The notes beneath the pieces were generated by a model that saw only the letters and a program-made list of their open reading frames with translations, searched no databases and was not told where the DNA came from. The position numbers and the translations under genes are program-made. DNA of 39,499 nucleotides from Shigella phage SFP20, in sequence record OQ031076, one strand, 5' to 3'. Positions 15,252 to 23,521 of the stretch are shown here, piece after piece; the first letter of the stretch is position 1; every line of letters begins with the position of its first letter.

Positions 15252-17011
15252 GTCAAGACTTAGCAGCGCGTCAGGCGCTTATGACTGCCCGTATGAAGGC
15301 AGACTTCGTGTTCTTCCTGTTCGTTCTGTGGAAAGCTCTGTCACTTCCTGTTCCGACTCGCTGTCAGATTGACATGGCGAAGAAGCTATCGGCTGGGGAC
15401 AACAGGCGCTTCATCTTGCAGGCGTTCCGTGGTATCGGGAAGTCCTTCATTACGTGTGCCTTCGTGGTCTGGAAGCTATGGAATAACCCGGACTTGAAGT
15501 TCATGATTGTGTCGGCCTCAAAGGAACGAGCCGATGCGAACTCAATCTTCATCAAGCGTATCATCGACCTCATGCCTCAGCTCCAAGAGTTGAAGCCTAA
15601 GCAGGGGCAGCGAGACGCAGTAATCAGCTTTGACGTAGGACCTGCCAAGCCTGACCACTCTCCTTCGGTTAAGTCCGTTGGTATCACTGGTCAGTTAACT
15701 GGTAGCCGTGCTGACATCCTGATTGCCGATGACGTAGAGGTCCCCGGTAACTCCGCTACTCAGGCAGCACGGGACCGACTGTCAGAGCTGGTGAAAGAGT
15801 TCGACGCAATCCTGAAGCCGGGTGGTACGGTTATCTATCTGGGTACTCCTCAGACCGAGATGACCTTGTATCGACAGCTTGAAGGTCGTGGTTACTCAAC
15901 TACCATCTGGCCTGCCCGCTACCCACGTGATGAGAAGGACTGGAAGTCTTACGGCGACCGTCTGGCCCCGATGCTTCAGGCCGAGCTTGAGTCCGACCCT
16001 GAGGGCTACTACTGGCTCCCTACCGATGAGGTTCGATTCGACGATGAGGACTTGAGGGAACGTGAGCTGTCTTACGGTAAGGCTGGCTTCGCTCTCCAGT
16101 TCATGCTCAACCCGAACCTTGGTGATGCCGAGAAATACCCGCTGAAGCTGCGTGACCTTATCGTAGCGGACTTGGACCCTGAGTCAAGCCCTATGGTCTA
16201 CCAGTGGCTCCCGAACCTTCAGAACAAGCGTGAGGACGTTCCTAACGTGGGACTCATGGGTGATTCCTACCACACGTATCAGACTGTAGGTTCTGCCTTC
16301 AGTTCGTACACCCAGAAGATTCTGGTCATTGACCCCAGTGGTCGTGGTAAGGATGAGACCGGGTATGCGGTACTGTATCAGCTCAACGGCTACATCTTCG
16401 TGATGGAAGCTGGTGGTATGCGCGGTGGCTATGAGGACTCTACGCTGGAGTCTCTGGCGAAGATTGGTCGCAAGTGGAAGATTAACGAGTACGTCATTGA
16501 GGGTAACTTCGGTGATGGTATGTATCTCGAACTCTTCAAGCCTGTGGCGGCTCGTATTCACCCGGCAGCAGTAACTGAGGTCAAGAGCAAGGGTCAGAAG
16601 GAACTACGCATCTGTGACGTTCTGGAGCCTATCATGGGGTCCCACAGACTCATCGTGAACTCCTCGACCATTGTGTCTGACTACCAGACTGCCGCTGACA
16701 AGGATGGCGTCCGTAACCCTATCTACTCCCTGTTCTACCAGATGACCCGTATCAGCCGTGAACGTGGGGCCTTGGCACACGATGACCGACTTGATGCTCT
16801 GGCTATCGGTGTACAGTTCTTCGTAGAGTCTATGGCTAAGGATGCCGTTAAGGGACAGCGTGAAGTCACCGAGGAGTGGCTGGAGGAACAGATGGAAGAC
16901 CCACGGAAAGGCTTTAAGTCCATCGAGACGGACTACTGGGACAATGGTGTCCGGGTCCAGTTCAATACAGATGATGACTTGGGCTTAGGGTCCTACGTAC
17001 AGTTCCACTAG
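15248..17011 (+). CDS. 19: terminase large subunit (gp19), apparent TTG start
   Basis: 587 aa; extensive identity to T7 gp19 ([134 protein letters not shown]). The track's first codon is TTG at 15248, preceded by RBS AAGGAGG. Confidence 0.95.
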
Positions 17012-17103
17012 CAGTTTGCATAAAGTACCGCTTTAGTTGCATGAATACGCACTATGTAAGTCGGTACATAACGCTCGTAACTCTATGTATTCCTTAGGAA
17101 AAT

Positions 17104-17126
17104 CTTATACCCTCACTATAGGAAAG
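17104..17126 (+). promoter_or_regulatory. phage RNAP promoter (phiOR position), CTTATACCCTCACTATAGGAAAG
   Basis: Promoter family match downstream of gene 19. Confidence 0.8.
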
Positions 17127-17534: not shown

Positions 17535-17697
17535 CTACTGTAGTCAAGGACTTTAGGTAACACCTTAAGAGAAGCTCACTTAGGGTCATCCTACTCACTG
17601 GTCTGCCCTAGTGTCGCCTGACCTACGGTCCTTGACCTACAGTGGCTGAGGCCTACAGTAGGGACGATGAGTTTTGGACCAAAAGTTTGAGACCACA

Positions 17698-17900
17698 TCT
17701 CACAGTTCAAGAACCTCAAGTCTCCCCATAGGCCCTCTTTCAGTCCAGACCAAAGGCCCTACCCCTAGACCTTCGGTCTAAACCTCAAGTCTTTGACCCG
17801 AAGTCGACCCGAAGTCTGGACCGATAGGGCCTATATCTTGTGGTTGGGACGATGGGTCGGGACTATATGTTGTGTCCTTGAGTCTCTATCTGTATCAGCC
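17698..17900. repeat. probable direct terminal repeat (collapsed to one copy) and physical genome end region
   Basis: TCTCACAGT at 17698-17706 matches the first bases of the T7 left end; CCTTGAGTCTCTATCTGTATC near 17875-17895 resembles the T7 TR end (CCTTGAGTGTCTCTCTGTGTCC). Boundaries approximate. Confidence 0.4.
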
Positions 17901-17905
17901 TCAAG

Positions 17906-18027
17906 TCATCACTACAGTCATCACTACAGTCATCACCTACAGTCAACCAGCCTACAGTCAATCCCTAAGTGATGGCCTACCTACAGTCACCAGACCTACA
18001 GTCAATAGACACCATGTCGACCTACAG
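17906..18027. repeat. array of short direct repeats ending in CCTACAGT (CATCACTACAGT x2, CATCACCTACAGT, and others)
   Basis: Tandem and dispersed ...CTACAGT units; positional analogue of the T7 left-end CCTAAAG repeat series. Similar units at 17620-17660 on the other side of the putative TR. Confidence 0.7.
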
Positions 18028-18241
18028 TTTATCAGAGTCCTAAGGTCTAGACTCACAGGTTATCACATCCGGTCCGTTTAGCAGTCAGAGACCATAGCTG
18101 ACTAGGGTTATTGTTGTTGGTGTCTGCCAACTGGACTCTTATTATCCATAGTCCAGACCTAAAGTCAATCACCTGTAGTCGATAATGGTCTTCCTTATAT
18201 AGTCACTGGACTACTGTATAAATTACCATGATAAATAGTTG

Positions 18242-18270
18242 TTGACAGTAGGTCTAACTTTTGGTTTAAT
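18242..18270 (+). promoter_or_regulatory. sigma70-type early promoter (A1-like): TTGACA, 17 bp, TTTAAT with upstream TG
   Basis: TTGACAGTAGGTCTAACTTTTGGTTTAAT; spacer contains GTCTAAC as in T7 A1. Confidence 0.6.
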
Positions 18271-18399
18271 AGCTTCCGTCAACACGACACGGCAACAACC
18301 GGATAGTGAAGACGCCGGGTCGGTCCGGTTAAGTAGTCAGCCTGTAAGACATACGAAAAACAGGCAACCGACAGCTAGGCGACTAGCGACAGAAAGTAG

Positions 18400-18429
18400 T
18401 TGACAAGATGTACCGACTTAAAGTAGTAT
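18400..18429 (+). promoter_or_regulatory. sigma70-type early promoter (A3-like): TTGACA, 18 bp, TAGTAT
   Basis: Downstream GTACCACATCGAAACGACAGTGAAG is nearly identical to the T7 A3 initial transcribed region (GTACCACATGAAACGACAGTGAG). Confidence 0.7.
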
Positions 18430-18554
18430 GTACCACATCGAAACGACAGTGAAGCCTAACACTGAAACAGGCTAGCGAGGCGACGACAGCCGAGCGAATG
18501 CTCTTTAACAATCTGGATAACTCTTAATGTGCGCCGATAATGCTAGTAAGCGAT

Positions 18555-18625
18555 TAACTCAAGAGACTTGTTGGCTACTGCGGGTCAGGCTCAAGATGAG
18601 CGCCTCAGGTCTCTTTCTGATAATC
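18555..18625 (+). promoter_or_regulatory. putative RNase III site upstream of gene 0.3 (R0.3 position)
   Basis: Preceded by CTCTTTAACAATCTGG, as in T7 upstream of R0.3; AACTCAAG ... TCTCTTTCTGATAATC flanks with internal inverted repeats (AGAGAC/GTCTCT). Confidence 0.5.
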
Positions 18626-18649
18626 ACTCACACTTAAAGGATACACATC

Positions 18650-19102
18650 ATGATTTACACTAACGAACCAGCCAACGTCTTCTATGTGCTCGTGTCTGCC
18701 GCTCGTGCTAACCTGTCTGATATGGCTAACATGGCCCGTCAGTTAGACCTTAAGGCACTGCTGCAAGCCGAACCTGAATACTACGGTGTGCTTGAATGCA
18801 CTGGGCTTACAGGCTGCTACCGCGAGGAGGGACAAGAGGTCGCCACTGAAGAGAGAACCTACCGTGTGCGCTGTGAGTCCAAGGCTCAAGCTATCAACGT
18901 TGCACGACTGGCCTGCAATGACTTTGAGCAAGACTGCGTGATGGTCTACAAGTCTCAGACTCACACGGCTGGACTGATGTTCTGCAAAGGCTTGGACGGG
19001 TTCAAGACCACACGTCTGAACGGGTCATTCCAGCAAGTCGATGCACCAAAGGGCGAATGCTTCACGAAAGACGCTGAAGGGCGCTTCTGGGAGGTGGTGT
19101 AA
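18650..19102 (+). CDS. 0.3: S-adenosylmethionine lyase/hydrolase (T3-type gene 0.3 anti-restriction protein)
   Basis: 150 aa; N-terminus MIYTNEPANVFYVLVSA... and motifs TGCYRE, VYKSQTHTAGL closely match my recollection of the T3 SAMase (about 152 aa); first early gene after the sigma70 promoters. Confidence 0.8.
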   Translation: MIYTNEPANVFYVLVSAARANLSDMANMARQLDLKALLQAEPEYYGVLECTGLTGCYREEGQEVATEERTYRVRCESKAQAINVARLACNDFEQDCVMVYKSQTHTAGLMFCKGLDGFKTTRLNGSFQQVDAPKGECFTKDAEGRFWEVV

Positions 19103-20762: not shown

Positions 20763-20785
20763 AATATACCCTCACTAGAGGACTC
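20763..20785 (+). promoter_or_regulatory. variant phage-promoter-like element (CCCTCACTAGAGG) upstream of gene 1
   Basis: AATATACCCTCACTAGAGGACTC: one mismatch (TAGA for TATA) to the family consensus; followed by the GACTCAAGG motif. Confidence 0.4.
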
Positions 20786-20854: not shown

Positions 20855-23521
20855 ATGAGCGTCATTCAGCTTGAGAAGCACGACTTCTCGGACATCTCCA
20901 ACGCTATCGAGCCGTTTAACATTCTGGCTGACCACTACGGGCAGGACCTCGCAGTCAAACAGCTTCAGCTTGAGCATGAGGCATACACTGAAGGCGAGCG
21001 TCGTTTCATCAAGAATCTTGAGCGTCAGGCTGAGCGCGGGGAGCTGGCTGATAATCAGGTCGCAAGACCACTGATGCAAACTCTGGTCCCTAAACTGGCG
21101 CAAGCCGTCAAGGAGTGGCACGAGACCCAAGGGTCAACCCGTGGTAAACCTCAGGTCGCCTTCCTGAAGCTGAGCACTGAGTCGAAACCTCGTGCGCTAC
21201 TGGTCCAGCCTGAGTCGGTGGCGGTCATCGTCCTGAAGATTGCGCTCTCCAAGCTGGTCAAGCCTGAAGGCGTACCGATTACACCGATGGCCTCCGCGAT
21301 TGGTCGCACACTTGAGGATGAAATCCGCTTCGGTCGCATCCGTGACCAAGAGCAGGAGCACTTCAAGAAGACCATAGCCGAGAACCTGAAGAAACGCGCT
21401 GGCGTGGCCTACAAGAAAGCCTACATGCAAGCGGTCGAAGCCTCCATGCTGGACCAGAAGCAACTGGCTGATGCGTGGGGAACATGGTCGCCTGATGAGG
21501 CTGTACATGTTGGCATCAAGATGCTGGAGCTTCTCATCCAGTCCACACAACTGGTCGAACTGAAGCGCCACAACGCCGGGAACGCAGCGTCAGACGTCGA
21601 GATGGTCCACTTGTCGGACTTCTGGGCCAAGAAGATGGCACAGCGTGGCTACTCACTGGCAGGCATCGCCCCGGTTTACCAGCCTTGTGTCGTGCCTCCA
21701 CGTCCTTGGAACTCGGTGGTCGGTGGCGGGTACTGGGCTAAAGGTCGCAGACCTCTCCCGCTGATGCGCTTAGGGTCGAAGGCCGCTATCGCTCGCTACG
21801 AGGAAGTTTACATGCCTGAAGTCTACGAGGCAGTGAACATCATTCAGCAGACTCCTTGGAAGGTGAACAAGAAGGTTCTGGACGTAGTGAACATGGTCGA
21901 GAAGCTGAACAATACGCCTATCGCTGACATCCCACAGATGGACCCGATGAAACCTGAGGACTACAACGGGGAGACCGAGGAGGAGCTGAAGGCGTGGAAG
22001 AAAGCAGCCGCTGGAATCTATCGCCGCGAGAAGGCCCGACAGTCCCGCCGTTTGTCCCTGAGCTTCATCGTCGGACAGGCGAACAAGTTCTCTCAGTTCA
22101 AGGCCATCTGGTTCCCGTACAACATGGACTGGCGCGGTCGAGTCTACGCGGTCCCGATGTTCAACCCACAGGGCAACGACATGCAAAAGGGTCTACTGAC
22201 TCTGGCAGTCGGCAAGCCAATCGGTGCGGACGGATTCAAGTGGCTTAAGGTCCACGGTGCGAACTGTGCGGGTGTCGATAAAGTCACCTTTGAGGAGCGC
22301 ATCAAGTGGGTGGAAGACAACCATGACAACATTCTCGCAGCCGCGAAGTCTCCGATGGACAGCATCGACTGGTGGGGTCAGTTAGACTCTCCGTTCTGCT
22401 TCCTCGCCTTCTGCTTCGAGTATGCTGGAGTCATGCACCACGGGCTGAGCTACTCCTGCTCTCTGCCTATCGCGTTCGATGGGTCATGCTCTGGGATTCA
22501 GCACTTCAGCGCAATGCTTCGGGACCACGTTGGTGGACATGCGGTCAACCTGACGCCAAGCGGGAAGGTCCAAGACATCTACCGCATCGTGTCTGACGAA
22601 GTGGAGGAGCGACTCAAGGAGCTGCTGGTCAACGGTAGCGACAACGAAGTCAAGACCTTCGAGGACAAGAAGACTGGCGAGATTACTGAACGTCTCATCC
22701 TCGGGACCCGTGAGCTGGCCCGGCAGTGGCTGACCTACGGAATGTCACGCTCGGTCACTAAACGCTCTGTCATGACTCTGGCCTACGGGTCGAAGGAATA
22801 CGGGTTCGCGGACCAAGTGTTCGAGGACACCGTGATGCCAGCGATTGATGCAGGCAAGGGGGCGATGTTCACAGACCCGAGCCAAGCGTCTCGCTTCATG
22901 GCTAAGATGATTTGGGATGCAGTGAGCGTGACTGTGGTAGCTGCGGTGGACGCGATGAAGTGGCTGCAAGGCGCGGCTAAGCTGCTGGCTGCTGAGGTCA
23001 AGGACAAGAAGACCAAAGAGGTCCTGAAGCCGTGCCTCCCGGTTCACTGGGTCACGCCTGATGGCTTCCCGGTCTGGCAGGAGTACCGCAAGAAGGACAC
23101 CACACGTCTGGACCTGATGTTCCTAGGGACTTTCCGTCTGCAACCCACAGTCAACAAAGGGGCGAGCAAGGAGCTGGACAAGCACAAGCAGGAGTCAGGC
23201 ATCAGCCCGAACTTCGTCCACTCACAGGATGGCAGTCACCTGAGGAAGACTGTAGTCCACACTCACCGCAAGTATGGAGTCATGAGCTTTGCGGTCATTC
23301 ATGATAGCTTCGGGACCATCCCGGCAGACGCTGAGTTCCTGTTCAAGGGCGTCCGCGAGACTATGGTCGAGACCTACCGCGACAACGATGTGCTGCAAGA
23401 CTTCTACGAGCAGTTCGCGGACCAGCTTCATGAGACCCAGCGCGATAAGCTGCCTGAGTTACCGAAGCGTGGTAAACTGAACATTGAAGACATTCTGTCA
23501 TCTGACTTTGCATTCGCCTAA
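20855..23521 (+). CDS. 1: single-subunit DNA-dependent RNA polymerase (gene 1)
   Basis: 888 aa; extensive identity to T7/T3 RNAP (LADHYG, GERRF, RFGRIRD, LVELKRHNAGNA, QPCVVPP.PW, IWFPYNMDWRGRVYAVPMFNPQGNDM.KGLLTLA, DSPFCFLAFCFEYAG, FDGSCSGIQHFSAMLRD, RSVTKRSVMTLAYGSKE, HKQESGI.PNFVHSQDGSHLR, IHDSFGT, C-terminal SDFAFA). Confidence 0.98.
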   Translation: MSVIQLEKHDFSDISNAIEPFNILADHYGQDLAVKQLQLEHEAYTEGERRFIKNLERQAERGELADNQVARPLMQTLVPKLAQAVKEWHETQGSTRGKPQVAFLKLSTESKPRALLVQPESVAVIVLKIALSKLVKPEGVPITPMASAIGRTLEDEIRFGRIRDQEQEHFKKTIAENLKKRAGVAYKKAYMQAVEASMLDQKQLADAWGTWSPDEAVHVGIKMLELLIQSTQLVELKRHNAGNAASDVEMVHLSDFWAKKMAQRGYSLAGIAPVYQPCVVPPRPWNSVVGGGYWAKGRRPLPLMRLGSKAAIARYEEVYMPEVYEAVNIIQQTPWKVNKKVLDVVNMVEKLNNTPIADIPQMDPMKPEDYNGETEEELKAWKKAAAGIYRREKARQSRRLSLSFIVGQANKFSQFKAIWFPYNMDWRGRVYAVPMFNPQGNDMQKGLLTLAVGKPIGADGFKWLKVHGANCAGVDKVTFEERIKWVEDNHDNILAAAKSPMDSIDWWGQLDSPFCFLAFCFEYAGVMHHGLSYSCSLPIAFDGSCSGIQHFSAMLRDHVGGHAVNLTPSGKVQDIYRIVSDEVEERLKELLVNGSDNEVKTFEDKKTGEITERLILGTRELARQWLTYGMSRSVTKRSVMTLAYGSKEYGFADQVFEDTVMPAIDAGKGAMFTDPSQASRFMAKMIWDAVSVTVVAAVDAMKWLQGAAKLLAAEVKDKKTKEVLKPCLPVHWVTPDGFPVWQEYRKKDTTRLDLMFLGTFRLQPTVNKGASKELDKHKQESGISPNFVHSQDGSHLRKTVVHTHRKYGVMSFAVIHDSFGTIPADAEFLFKGVRETMVETYRDNDVLQDFYEQFADQLHETQRDKLPELPKRGKLNIEDILSSDFAFA

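What the first reader, a model, noticed from the sequence alone, without database searches (positions are those of the whole stretch)
18242..18429. Host sigma70 early promoters retained, with a T7 A3-like initial transcribed region
Two strong sigma70-type promoters drive the early region. The second is followed by GTACCACATCGAAACGACAGTGAAG, almost identical to the T7 A3 downstream sequence, implying selection on the transcript 5' region and not only on the promoter hexamers. Only two clear promoters were found, against three (A1-A3) in T7.
Basis: partly seen in the sequence, partly recalled or inferred. Interest (0 to 1): 0.4.

Follow-up and report, generated by a model that had tools for sequence, protein, structure and literature searches.

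The report
T7-type early promoters and antitermination leader

Summary
The window is a circularly permuted T7-like genome (Kayfunavirus, 93.6% to Cronobacter phage GW1), with its physical left end at 17698.

- **P1:** 18242-18270 aligns base for base with promoter A1 of T7 and T3.
- **P2:** 18400-18429 aligns with A3, giving a predicted start at A18437.
- **A2:** it has no counterpart. Two promoters is the usual number in the Kayfunavirus relatives sampled.
- **Quoted string:** 18430-18454 matches T7 at 22 of 25 bases with one inserted C.

Two corrections are needed.

- **P1 strength:** its -10 element (TGgTTTAAT) lacks the near-universal A at -11, so "strong" is unproven.
- **Conserved string:** it is not one initial-transcribed element. 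It is a discriminator (GTACCAC), a variable +1..+10, and then the 5' edge of a roughly 75-nt leader RNA module. The module runs GUGA, hairpin HP1, hairpin HP2, then boxA (18499-18511).

HP1 has an invariant loop ACACUGAAA and four stem pairs that each show 13-19 compensatory double changes across 46 distinct sequences. In 81 polymerase-anchored loci HP1 occurs 27 times, always 50-54 nt upstream of boxA and never without it. BoxA is a genetically supported antiterminator in T7. HP1 matches no Rfam family.

The promoters are ordinary. The leader hairpin is the only possibly new item.

The parts
18242..18270 (+). P1, homologue of T7/T3 early promoter A1. It has -35 TTGACA (18242-18247), a 17-bp spacer, an extended -10 TG (18262-18263) and -10 TTTAAT (18265-18270). 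An A/T-rich tract lies upstream at about 18215-18239.
   Evidence: Sequence read. Aligned with the T7 and T3 A1 hexamers. The pattern TTGAC(A/T)-N14-TGG-YY-TAAT-RGC occurs in 26 distinct relatives. The scan does not list it because it lacks A at -11.
18278..18278 (+). Predicted P1 transcription start, by homology only.
   Evidence: T7 A1 +1 (position 498, annotated in NC_001604) maps to window 18278 in alignment A1.
18315..18365 (+). Conserved A1-leader block. It holds hairpin HPa (CCGG 18315-18318 with CCGG 18325-18328), the tract UUAAGUAGUCA, and hairpin HPb (GCCUG 18341-18345 with CAGGC 18361-18365). In T7 and T3 it ends at the -35 of A2.
   Evidence: From about 18326 the block is 85-95% identical to T7 and T3. 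HPa stems differ between relatives while staying complementary. HPb is 99% paired, with two pairs showing changes on both sides.
18366..18399 (+). Position where T7 and T3 carry promoter A2. The window has no -35/-10 pair here, only CCGACA (18368-18373) where T7 and T3 have TTGACA. It also holds a small hairpin GCTAGGCGACTAGC (18374-18387).
   Evidence: The T7 and T3 A2 hexamers and start fall in an alignment gap at window 18367. All Kayfunavirus-type relatives show ATGACA, GTGACA or CCGACA here, followed directly by the A3-type promoter.
18400..18436 (+). P2, homologue of T7/T3 early promoter A3. It has -35 TTGACA (18400-18405), an 18-bp spacer, -10 TAGTAT (18424-18429) and discriminator GTACCAC (18430-18436).
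   Evidence: Scores 10 of 12 in the scan, the same as T7 A2 and A3 in the control. Aligned with the annotated T3 and T7 A3 hexamers. Mean majority fraction is 0.98 for the -35 and 0.94 for the discriminator, against 0.54 for the spacer.
18437..18452 (+). Predicted P2 start (A18437) and the first 16 transcribed bases, AUCGAAACGACAGUGA. The segment ends in the conserved CAGUGA (18447-18452).
   Evidence: T7 A3 +1 (750) maps to 18437. Conservation is 0.68 for +1..+10 and 0.90 for CAGUGA.
18453..18473 (+). Hairpin HP1. The stem is AGCCU (18453-18457) with AGGCU (18469-18473), and the loop AACACUGAAAC holds the invariant ACACUGAAA (18459-18467). Upstream CAGUG (18447-18451) can pair with loop CACUG (18460-18464), which would give a pseudoknot.
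   Evidence: the count of structure pairs on 46 distinct sequences gives four core pairs with 13-19 double-sided changes each and 0-4 broken. The covariation score is 0.44, against 0.15 in shuffles (0 of 500 as high) and at most 0.108 in slid controls. RNAalifold predicts the same four pairs independently. The CAGUG/CACUG helix is 95% paired but varies on one side only.
18475..18495 (+). Hairpin HP2, GC-GA-GGC-GACGACA-GCC-GA-GC. It ends 4 nt before boxA, which is the boxB position of rrn leaders.
   Evidence: A hairpin at this position is the minimum-energy fold in 25 of 27 distinct versions, about 1-3 SD (typically 2) below shuffles. Stems are unrelated in sequence: GGC/GCC, CCC/GGG, AGUC/GACU, GGUC/GACC, GUGC/GCAC, GGCU/AGCC.
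18499..18511 (+). boxA, TGCTCTTTAACAA.
   Evidence: GCTCTTTAACA is a perfect match to the gamma-proteobacterial boxA consensus GYTCTTTAANA (PMC5725501). It is present, allowing one mismatch, in 68 of 81 polymerase-anchored loci. It is identical to the rrnB leader boxA. The T7 counterpart is described as a functional antitermination element in PMC3709561, which cites Savalia et al. 2010.
18549..18628 (+). Long hairpin homologous to the RNase III site R0.3 of T3 and T7, with an insertion of about 33 nt.
   Evidence: The annotated T3 stem-loop 822-875 maps to window 18547-18630. The single-sequence fold gives a long hairpin there.
18650..19102 (+). First early gene, the gene 0.3 position. It is a T3-type S-adenosylmethionine hydrolase of 150 aa.
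   Evidence: ORF listed. The homologous gene is annotated as S-adenosyl-L-methionine hydrolase in GW1 and other close relatives.

Best explanation
The interval is the host-RNA-polymerase entry point of a T7-like phage, 545-815 bp from the physical left end of the genome. E. coli-type sigma-70 holoenzyme is predicted to start at about G18278 (P1, the A1 homologue) and at A18437 (P2, the A3 homologue). Promoter A2 of T7 and T3 has no counterpart.

The 'T7 A3-like' sequence after P2 has two parts. The first is a DNA-level promoter part, the discriminator GTACCAC plus the start site. The second is the 5' edge of a cis-acting leader RNA: GUGA, hairpin HP1 with invariant loop ACACUGAAA, hairpin HP2, and 4 nt later boxA.

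As the nascent RNA emerges, boxA recruits NusB/NusE and the other Nus factors to the elongating host polymerase, as in rrn operons. The two hairpins occupy the rrn boxB side of boxA and are inferred to help assemble or stabilise that complex. The modified polymerase then reads through the long untranslated leader and the early region without premature termination. Because host transcription also draws the genome into the cell, processivity here matters for infection.

Shown here: homology of both promoters, absence of A2, covariation of HP1, and strict linkage of HP1 to boxA. Taken from the literature: the boxA function in T7. Inferred: transcription starts in this phage and any role of HP1 and HP2 in antitermination.
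For: - **Identity and layout:** the best DNA match is Cronobacter phage GW1 at 93.6%, with 487 phage records matching. Window 17698 aligns with base 1 of T7 and T3.
- **Promoter homology:** established. A scan control on T7 recovers exactly A1-A3.
- **Conservation islands:** they lie at 18326-18364, 18423-18452, 18501-18520 and 18611-18630, against a background that mostly lies between 5% and 70%.
- **HP1 covariation:**. G-U pairs occur on the + strand only (29 of 46 at the closing pair), which fits an RNA of the early-transcript sense.
- **Linkage to boxA:** in 927 kb of polymerase-anchored loci the HP1 motif occurs 27 times. It occurs once per locus, always on the + strand, always 50-54 nt upstream of boxA and never without boxA.
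- **Independence from the promoter:** the module is found behind at least four unrelated promoter spacers, and in L034 and L035 about 90 nt away from the promoter.
- **HP2:** a hairpin just before boxA in 25 of 27 versions.
- **Same order elsewhere:** hairpin-then-boxA is also the order in rrnB P2 and in a Rac-like prophage that shares 22 nt of boxA plus flank.
- **T7 genetics:** boxA mutations and A3 down-mutations make Gp2 dispensable (PMC3709561, citing Savalia 2010). Genome entry is coupled to transcription from A1-A3 (PMC5569994).
Against: - There are no transcription data for this phage. Both starts rest on alignment.
- P1 has T at -11 in the 17-bp register, or G at -7 in a 19-bp register, so it may be weak.
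- 41 of 68 boxA-bearing relatives have no HP1, so HP1 is not needed for boxA to be kept. Its function could be unrelated to antitermination.
- The HP1 loop and boxA were used to collect the sequences, so their invariance is partly by construction. Only the stem covariation and the linkage count in the polymerase-anchored sample are free of that bias.
- The single-sequence fold of the window leader is no more stable than shuffles (z = -0.40) and prefers CAGUG/CACUG over HP1.
- The primary paper on T7 boxA could not be read.
Confidence: 0.6

Rival explanations
1. The conserved sequence acts at the DNA level as part of the promoter. The discriminator and initial transcribed sequence would set open-complex lifetime, start-site choice, promoter escape or early pausing of host polymerase. 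No RNA function would be needed.
For: The discriminator GTACCAC is more conserved than the -10 hexamer (0.94 against 0.76). G(T/C)ACCAC also follows the last early promoter in relatives whose downstream leader is unrelated, such as L005, L018, L019 and many Klebsiella-phage-like loci with GCACCACAG. It resembles the rrnB P1 and P2 discriminators GCGCCACC and GCACACC.
Against: This explains only 18430-18437. The bases from +1 to +10 are the least conserved part (0.68). The conserved CAGUGA and HP1 keep pairing through double substitutions, which a duplex-DNA element does not require. The module is kept when moved about 90 nt from the promoter.
Confidence: 0.3
2. There is no special selection. 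The identity with T7 A3 reflects shared ancestry or recent recombination between mosaic T7-like genomes.
For: The exact motif GAAACGACAGTG (one mismatch allowed) has a patchy distribution, in 6 of 80 polymerase-anchored loci. It is absent from L015, whose polymerase is 99% identical to the window's. Promoter cores in front of the module are clearly swapped between lineages.
Against: Flanking non-coding sequence has diverged, mostly to between 5% and 70% identity, while the block stays at 85-95%. Compensatory changes in HP1 show purifying selection on pairing.
Confidence: 0.1
3. HP1 and HP2 form a 5' structural cap or processing signal. It would protect or mark the leader RNA for RNase E or RNase III decay control, independently of boxA.
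For: The hairpins lie within 17-60 nt of the predicted 5' end. An RNase III site follows about 50 nt after boxA.
Against: A stabiliser needs no invariant 9-nt loop and no fixed 50-54 nt distance to boxA. RNase III cutting at R0.3 would separate the leader from the mRNA it would protect. The module also occurs well inside transcripts (L034, L035, and all A1 transcripts).
Confidence: 0.15
4. HP1 and HP2 act like the put RNAs of phage HK022. Two promoter-proximal hairpins would bind the transcribing host polymerase directly and make it termination-resistant without protein factors, with boxA as an independent second device.
For: There are two adjacent hairpins just downstream of an early promoter, with an invariant loop across phages of many host genera.
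Against: No sequence or Rfam similarity to any known family was found. The strict association with boxA suggests joint rather than independent action. No experiment bears on it.
Confidence: 0.12
5. The start of the A3 transcript encodes a mini-ORF (in T7: AUG AAA CGA CAG UGA), and that is what is conserved.
For: T7 and T3 read ATGAAACGACAGTGA from +1.
Against: The window and most Kayfunavirus relatives read ATCGAAAC..., with no ATG and a shifted frame. Other lineages read ACGAAATGACGGAACAGTGA.
Confidence: 0.02

Closest known systems
Early (class I) E. coli RNA polymerase promoters A1, A2 and A3 of phages T7 and T3
   Same: Same position relative to the genome end: window starts at 581 and 740 bp, T7 at 498 and 750. 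Same orientation and the same downstream order of boxA, RNase III site R0.3 and gene 0.3. P1 and P2 align base for base with A1 and A3.
   Different: A2 is absent. The P1 -10 is TGgTTTAAT instead of GATACT or TATTAT. The P2 spacer is unrelated and is 18 bp, not 17. There is one extra base at +3.
rrn operon leader of E. coli (P1, P2, boxB hairpin, boxA, boxC), the Nus-factor antitermination system
   Same: Tandem strong promoters, hairpin(s) then boxA in that order, and an identical boxA core GCTCTTTAACAA. The window P1 leader also aligns with the rrnB P1 leader better than any of 3000 dinucleotide shuffles.
   Different: There are two hairpins rather than one, and the first has an invariant 9-nt loop that rrn boxB lacks. 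The distance from start to boxA is 63 nt against about 30. No clear boxC was found. The product is mRNA, not rRNA.
Lambda nut sites (boxA followed by boxB, bound by N)
   Same: A boxA element in an early leader just downstream of the early promoters.
   Different: The order is reversed, with hairpins 5' of boxA. Loops are 11 and 7 nt, not a GNRA-like pentaloop. T7-like phages are not known to encode an N protein (general knowledge, not tested here).
HK022 put RNAs
   Same: Two promoter-proximal hairpins in a phage early leader that could act in cis on host polymerase.
   Different: No sequence similarity was detected. Association with boxA implies factor-dependent action. This is an analogy only.

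Membership tests
T7-group early host-polymerase promoters (A1/A3) | Located a few hundred bp from the physical left end, upstream of gene 0.3, reading rightward | tested here: met
   The left end at 17698 aligns with base 1 of T7 and T3. P1 lies at 545 bp and P2 at 703 bp. Gene 0.3 lies at 18650.
T7-group early host-polymerase promoters (A1/A3) | Positional sequence homology with the annotated A1 and A3 promoters of T7 and T3 | tested here: met
   Alignment A1 maps the T7 +1 sites and the T3 -35 hexamers onto the window sites. The T3 A3 -10 maps exactly and the T3 A1 -10 maps within 3 nt.
T7-group early host-polymerase promoters (A1/A3) | Sigma-70 -35 and -10 hexamers with 16-18 bp spacing, including A at -11 and T at -7 | tested here: inconclusive
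   P2 meets it (TTGACA-18-TAGTAT, 10 of 12). P1 has a perfect -35 and an extended -10 TG, but T at -11 (TTTAAT). That form is conserved in 26 distinct relatives.
T7-group early host-polymerase promoters (A1/A3) | Transcription initiation by host holoenzyme at these sites | not testable with these tools
   Needs 5' end mapping or in vitro transcription.
BoxA / Nus-factor antitermination site (rrn type) | Match to the boxA consensus GYTCTTTAANA on the transcribed strand | tested here: met
   GCTCTTTAACA at 18500-18510; consensus from PMC5725501. It is the only occurrence of CTCTTTAACAA in the window on either strand.
BoxA / Nus-factor antitermination site (rrn type) | Lies in an untranslated leader downstream of a sigma-70 promoter, with a hairpin immediately 5' of boxA (rrn boxB position) | tested here: met
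   63 nt downstream of the predicted P2 start. HP2 ends 4 nt before boxA. The rrnB layout was read.
BoxA / Nus-factor antitermination site (rrn type) | Binds NusB/NusE and confers terminator read-through | not testable with these tools
   Reported genetically for the T7 homologue (PMC3709561, citing Savalia et al. 2010). Not tested for this phage.
Lambda-type nut site | boxA followed 3' by a boxB hairpin with a GNRA-like pentaloop | tested here: not met
   The covarying hairpins are 5' of boxA, with loops of 11 and 7 nt.
Any curated Rfam RNA family | Score at or above the family's gathering threshold | tested here: not met
   No match in the whole window at gathering thresholds. Only two chance-level matches at E <= 10 in 18200-18700. 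One is StyR-44 at 18 bits against a threshold of 54, over the boxA region.
H-type RNA pseudoknot (CAGUG with the loop CACUG of HP1) | Both helices supported by covariation | tested here: inconclusive
   HP1 is strongly supported. The second helix is 95% paired but shows only one-sided changes (C-G to U-G, A-U to G-U), and 9 of 46 sequences are unpaired at one position.

The most novel reading that the evidence does not exclude
GUGA, a covarying stem and the invariant loop ACACUGAAA (HP1; T7 nt 762-786, window 18449-18473) form an undescribed cis-acting RNA motif of the early leaders of T7, T3 and K1F-type phages. It would work together with boxA, for example by binding a host factor or the polymerase itself, to build an rrn-like termination-resistant host polymerase. 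On this reading the whole early leader is a mimic of the host rrn P1-P2 leader.
Probability: 0.3. Interest if true: 0.6.

Novelty: new member of a known kind. Interest (0 to 1): 0.35.

Why it matters
As stated, the finding is routine annotation of a T7-like genome. It fixes where host transcription, and hence genome entry, begins, and shows that this clade manages with two promoters instead of three.

The follow-up adds one testable point in a model phage. Between the A3 start and the genetically defined boxA antiterminator of T7 lies a hairpin whose stem is maintained by compensatory changes and whose loop does not vary across phages of many enterobacterial hosts. It matches no Rfam family, and the papers I could read do not mention it. 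If it contributes to antitermination, it would help explain how T7-like phages make host polymerase processive enough to pull in and express the early region.

Tried and rejected
- **Rfam:** nothing at gathering thresholds on the whole window, and only chance-level matches at E <= 10 on 18200-18700.
- **HP1 without boxA:** The metagenome scan with loop plus boxA returned mostly chance or rrn-leader matches and added only about ten T7-like sequences.
- **BLAST against E. coli genomes:** the leader found only the 22-nt boxA match in Rac-like prophages. The similarity of the P1 leader to rrnB P1 appears only in a direct pairwise alignment with shuffle controls.
- **Mini-ORF at the A3 start:** rejected, because the ATG is not conserved.
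- **Inverted repeat:** the 13-nt perfect inverted repeat between 17057-17069 and the P2 spacer is not co-conserved in relatives, so it is treated as chance.
- **Single-sequence folding:** the window leader gives no signal (z = -0.40).
- **Literature:** the primary paper on T7 boxA (Savalia et al. 2010, PMC2941873) is not held, so I rely on its summary in PMC3709561. Searches for the motif sequences found only a primer/fragment table.
- **Loose A1 scan:** a loose pattern scan for A1-type promoters was too unspecific and was replaced.
- **Direction of change at A2:** loss in this clade or gain by duplication in the T7/T3 line could not be decided. T7 A2 and A3 share TTGACAACATGAAGTAA, which fits duplication. 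The decayed TGACA at the A2 position in Kayfunavirus fits loss.

Full report
**What the window is.** The 601 bases around the finding match 487 phage records. The best is Cronobacter phage GW1 (Kayfunavirus, Studiervirinae) at 93.6%. The ORF map shows a large terminase ending at 17011, a non-coding stretch, a 150-aa first gene at 18650-19102 and an 888-aa RNA polymerase at 20855-23521. In close relatives that first gene is annotated as S-adenosylmethionine hydrolase. Window 17698 (TCTCACAGTT...) aligns with base 1 of both T7 and T3. The window is therefore a circular permutation of a linear T7-like genome, and the finding lies 545-815 bp from the physical left end. That is where T7 and T3 carry their host-polymerase early promoters.

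**Checking the observation.**
- P2 is TTGACA (18400-18405), 18 bp, TAGTAT (18424-18429). It is the best hit of the consensus scan at 10 of 12. The same scan on the first 1500 bp of T7 returns exactly the three mapped promoters A1, A2 and A3 with 9-10 of 12.
- P1 is TTGACA (18242-18247), 17 bp, TTTAAT (18265-18270), preceded by TG at 18262-18263 and by an A/T-rich tract.
- The scan does not list P1 because TTTAAT has T where almost all sigma-70 promoters have A (-11).
- Consensus matches alone are not above chance: 7 found in 5 kb against 4.4 +/- 2.2 expected.

Homology decides the matter. In a three-way alignment the T7 A1 start (498) maps to window 18278 and the T7 A3 start (750) to 18437. 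The T3 -35 hexamers map onto 18242 and 18400 and the T3 A3 -10 onto 18424. The T3 A1 -10 maps to 18268, about 3 nt from the TTTAAT hexamer, because of a 2-nt gap in the T3 spacer. The A2 hexamers of both phages fall into a gap. The quoted string lies at 18430-18454 and equals T7 743-766 at 22 of 25 bases with one inserted C.

**Two promoters, not three.** In 80 loci collected through the RNA polymerase gene, and so without regard to the leader, the count varies by lineage.
- Kayfunavirus-type phages mostly show an A1-type and an A3-type promoter.
- T7 and T3 types have three, and some Teseptimavirus-type loci have four.
- Klebsiella-phage-like loci have none to two.

In all Kayfunavirus-type sequences the block that precedes A2 in T7 and T3 (...ACGAAAAACAGGCA) is retained. 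It is followed by ATGACA, GTGACA or CCGACA and then, within 12-33 nt, by the A3-type -35. This looks like loss of the A2 core. However, T7 A2 and A3 share TTGACAACATGAAGTAA, so a duplication in the T7/T3 line cannot be excluded.

**P1 is atypical.** Twenty-six distinct relatives share TTGAC(A/T)-N14-TGG-YY-TAAT-RGC. The two bases that would be -12 and -11 are the variable ones and are never A. In the alternative 19-bp register (TAATAG) the -7 T is missing. The site is clearly the A1 homologue and is conserved. It has a perfect -35 and an extended -10 TG. Its strength cannot be asserted from sequence.

**What the 'A3-like initial transcribed region' is.** Against T7 and T3, identity in this non-coding region mostly lies between 5% and 70%. 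Four islands reach 75-100%: 18326-18364, 18423-18452, 18501-18520 and 18611-18630.

Across 28 distinct relatives that carry the module, the mean majority fraction per segment is as follows.

| Segment | Mean majority fraction |
|---|---|
| -35 hexamer | 0.98 |
| Spacer | 0.54 |
| -10 hexamer | 0.76 |
| Discriminator GTACCAC | 0.94 |
| +1..+10 | 0.68 |
| CAGUGA | 0.90 |

The block is therefore composite. The exact motif GAAACGACAGTG (one mismatch allowed) occurs in only 6 of the 80 polymerase-anchored loci. It is missing even from L015, whose polymerase is 99% identical to the window's. The discriminator G(T/C)ACCAC recurs behind the last early promoter even where the downstream leader is unrelated.

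**A covarying hairpin follows.** Directly after CAGUGA comes a hairpin, HP1. In the window it is AGCCU (18453-18457), loop AACACUGAAAC, then AGGCU (18469-18473). The corresponding stems are UCACC/GGUGA in T7 and GCGG/CCGC in T3. Others include UCCC/GGGA, GACC/GGUC, GGCU/AGCC, GUCAC/GUGAC and GGGGC/GCCCU.

On 46 distinct sequences, each of the four core pairs shows 13-19 sequences changed on both sides and 0-4 broken. One pair occurs as C-G, A-U, U-A and G-C with no exception. The covariation score is 0.44, against 0.15 +/- 0.013 in shuffles (0 of 500 as high) and at most 0.108 when partners are slid. RNAalifold predicts the same four pairs unaided. G-U pairs are frequent on the + strand, 29 of 46 at the closing pair. 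This fits an RNA of the early-transcript sense and not a DNA cruciform.

The loop ACACUGAAA is invariant, but it was used to collect the sequences. Upstream CAGUG can pair with loop CACUG, which would give an H-type pseudoknot. That helix is 95% paired but changes only on one side, so it remains possible and unproven.

**A second hairpin and boxA.** Between HP1 and boxA, a hairpin is the minimum-energy fold in 25 of 27 distinct versions. It ends 4-6 nt before boxA and has unrelated stems. BoxA itself (TGCTCTTTAACAA, 18499-18511) matches the consensus GYTCTTTAANA (PMC5725501) and the rrnB leader.

In the unbiased sample (window plus 80 loci, 927 kb) the counts are clear.
- BoxA occurs in 68 loci.
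- The HP1 motif occurs in 27 loci, once each and always on the + strand.
- HP1 is always 50-54 nt upstream of boxA and never occurs without it.

The module sits behind at least four unrelated promoter spacers. In L034 and L035 it lies about 90 nt further from the promoter. It is therefore not an initial-transcribed element in the strict sense.

**How it most likely works.**
- PMC3709561, summarising Savalia et al. 2010, states that boxA downstream of the T7 early promoters is an anti-termination element. It also reports that boxA mutations or A3 down-mutations make the host-polymerase inhibitor Gp2 dispensable.
- PMC5569994 recalls that entry of the T7 genome is coupled to host transcription from A1-A3.
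- Hairpin-then-boxA is the order in rrn leaders, where rrnB P2 has GCCGCU...AGCGGC, three bases, then boxA. It is also the order in a Rac-like prophage whose boxA and flank are identical to the window over 22 nt.

I therefore read 18437-18511 as an rrn-type antitermination leader. BoxA loads the Nus factors, and HP1 and HP2 are accessory. The accessory role is inference. 41 boxA-bearing relatives lack HP1, so HP1 may do something else. The rivals are a promoter-level role for the discriminator (likely true for 18430-18437), an RNA stabiliser, and a put-like polymerase-binding RNA. A mini-ORF is excluded because the ATG is not conserved.

**The rest of the interval.** The A1 leader is also constrained.
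- The block from about 18326 to 18365 is 85-95% identical to T7 and T3, although A2 is gone.
- It contains a hairpin whose stem differs among relatives while staying complementary: CCGG/CCGG, CCGGG/CCCGG, CCUGG/CCAGG, CCAC/GUGG, GCUG/CGGC.
- It contains a second hairpin that is 99% paired, with two pairs changed on both sides.
- The window P1 leader (18276-18330) aligns with the E. coli rrnB P1 discriminator and leader with a local score of 18.5. Three thousand dinucleotide shuffles give 8.75 +/- 1.32, and none reaches 18.5. T7 itself shows no such signal.

Together with boxA and the RNase III site that follows (18549-18628), the early leader resembles an rrn leader in layout. I flag this as a lead, not a conclusion.

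**Comparison with known things and novelty.** P1 and P2 are members of the T7-group early promoters by position and homology. Function is untested, and P1 deviates at -11. BoxA meets the sequence and context criteria of an rrn-type Nus site. It is not a lambda-type nut site, because the order is reversed and there is no pentaloop. No Rfam family matches. I found no mention of the hairpin in the papers I could read, but the key older papers were not available.

**Verdict.** The promoters are an ordinary new member of a known kind. The one item worth a specialist's attention is the covarying, boxA-linked hairpin, which is also present in T7 itself.

Noticed in passing
window 18276-18330: The leader transcribed from P1 aligns with the discriminator and leader of E. 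coli rrnB P1 (CGTCAACAC-GACACGGCAACAACCGG...ACGCCGGGTC against CGCCACCACTGACACGGAACAACGG...GCCGCCGGGTC). The local score is 18.5 against 8.75 +/- 1.32 in 3000 dinucleotide shuffles, and none is as high. T7 itself is not significant.
   Followed up: partly
window 18262-18270: The P1 -10 region is TGgTTTAAT, with no A at -11. Twenty-six distinct relatives share TGG-YY-TAAT-RGC, and the two would-be -12/-11 bases are the variable ones. This is an unusual conserved sigma-70 promoter form.
   Followed up: partly
window 18315-18365: An A1-leader block is 85-95% identical to T7 and T3 (from about 18326) even though the A2 promoter it precedes in those phages is absent. It contains two hairpins, 18315-18328 and 18341-18365, with some compensatory changes in relatives.
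   Followed up: partly
window 18374-18387: A small hairpin GCTAGGCGACTAGC is flanked by CGACAG repeats. The same hairpin type forms the first 16 nt of the T7 A2 transcript and lies directly before boxA in loci L051, L067, L071, L073 and L074. It looks like a mobile mini-module.
   Followed up: no
window 18141-18168 (- strand): A leftward sigma-70-like site, TTGACT-16-GATAAT, scores 10 of 12. It could correspond to the leftward A0 promoter of T7 and T3. However, its -35 is part of a copy of the left-end repeat unit CCAGACCTAAAGTCAAT, so it may be chance.
   Followed up: no
window 17600-18170: An array of short direct repeats (CCTACAGTCA-type units, several families) lies between the genome end and the early promoters, as at the left end of T7.
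   Followed up: no
window 17698: The physical left end of the linear genome aligns with base 1 of T7 and T3. The window is therefore a circular permutation, presumably with the terminal repeat collapsed.
   Followed up: yes
window 20768-20783 and 17109-17124: Ten copies of the phage-polymerase promoter ACCCTCACTATAGGA were found. None lies between 17125 and 20767, so there is no phiOL equivalent upstream of P1. One sits just upstream of the RNA polymerase gene itself.
   Followed up: no
window 18549-18628: The R0.3-type RNase III hairpin carries an insertion of about 33 nt (around 18571-18603) relative to T7 and T3.
   Followed up: no
window 18498-18519; locus L326 1470-1522: The 22 nt of boxA plus flank are identical in 343 E. 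coli genomes. They lie in a Rac-like prophage downstream of racR, where a hairpin GCCGGA...TCCGGC also lies 2 nt upstream of boxA.
   Followed up: partly
window 17057-17069 and 18408-18420: A 13-nt perfect inverted repeat links the region after the terminase gene and the P2 spacer. The two arms are not co-conserved in relatives, so it is probably chance.
   Followed up: yes
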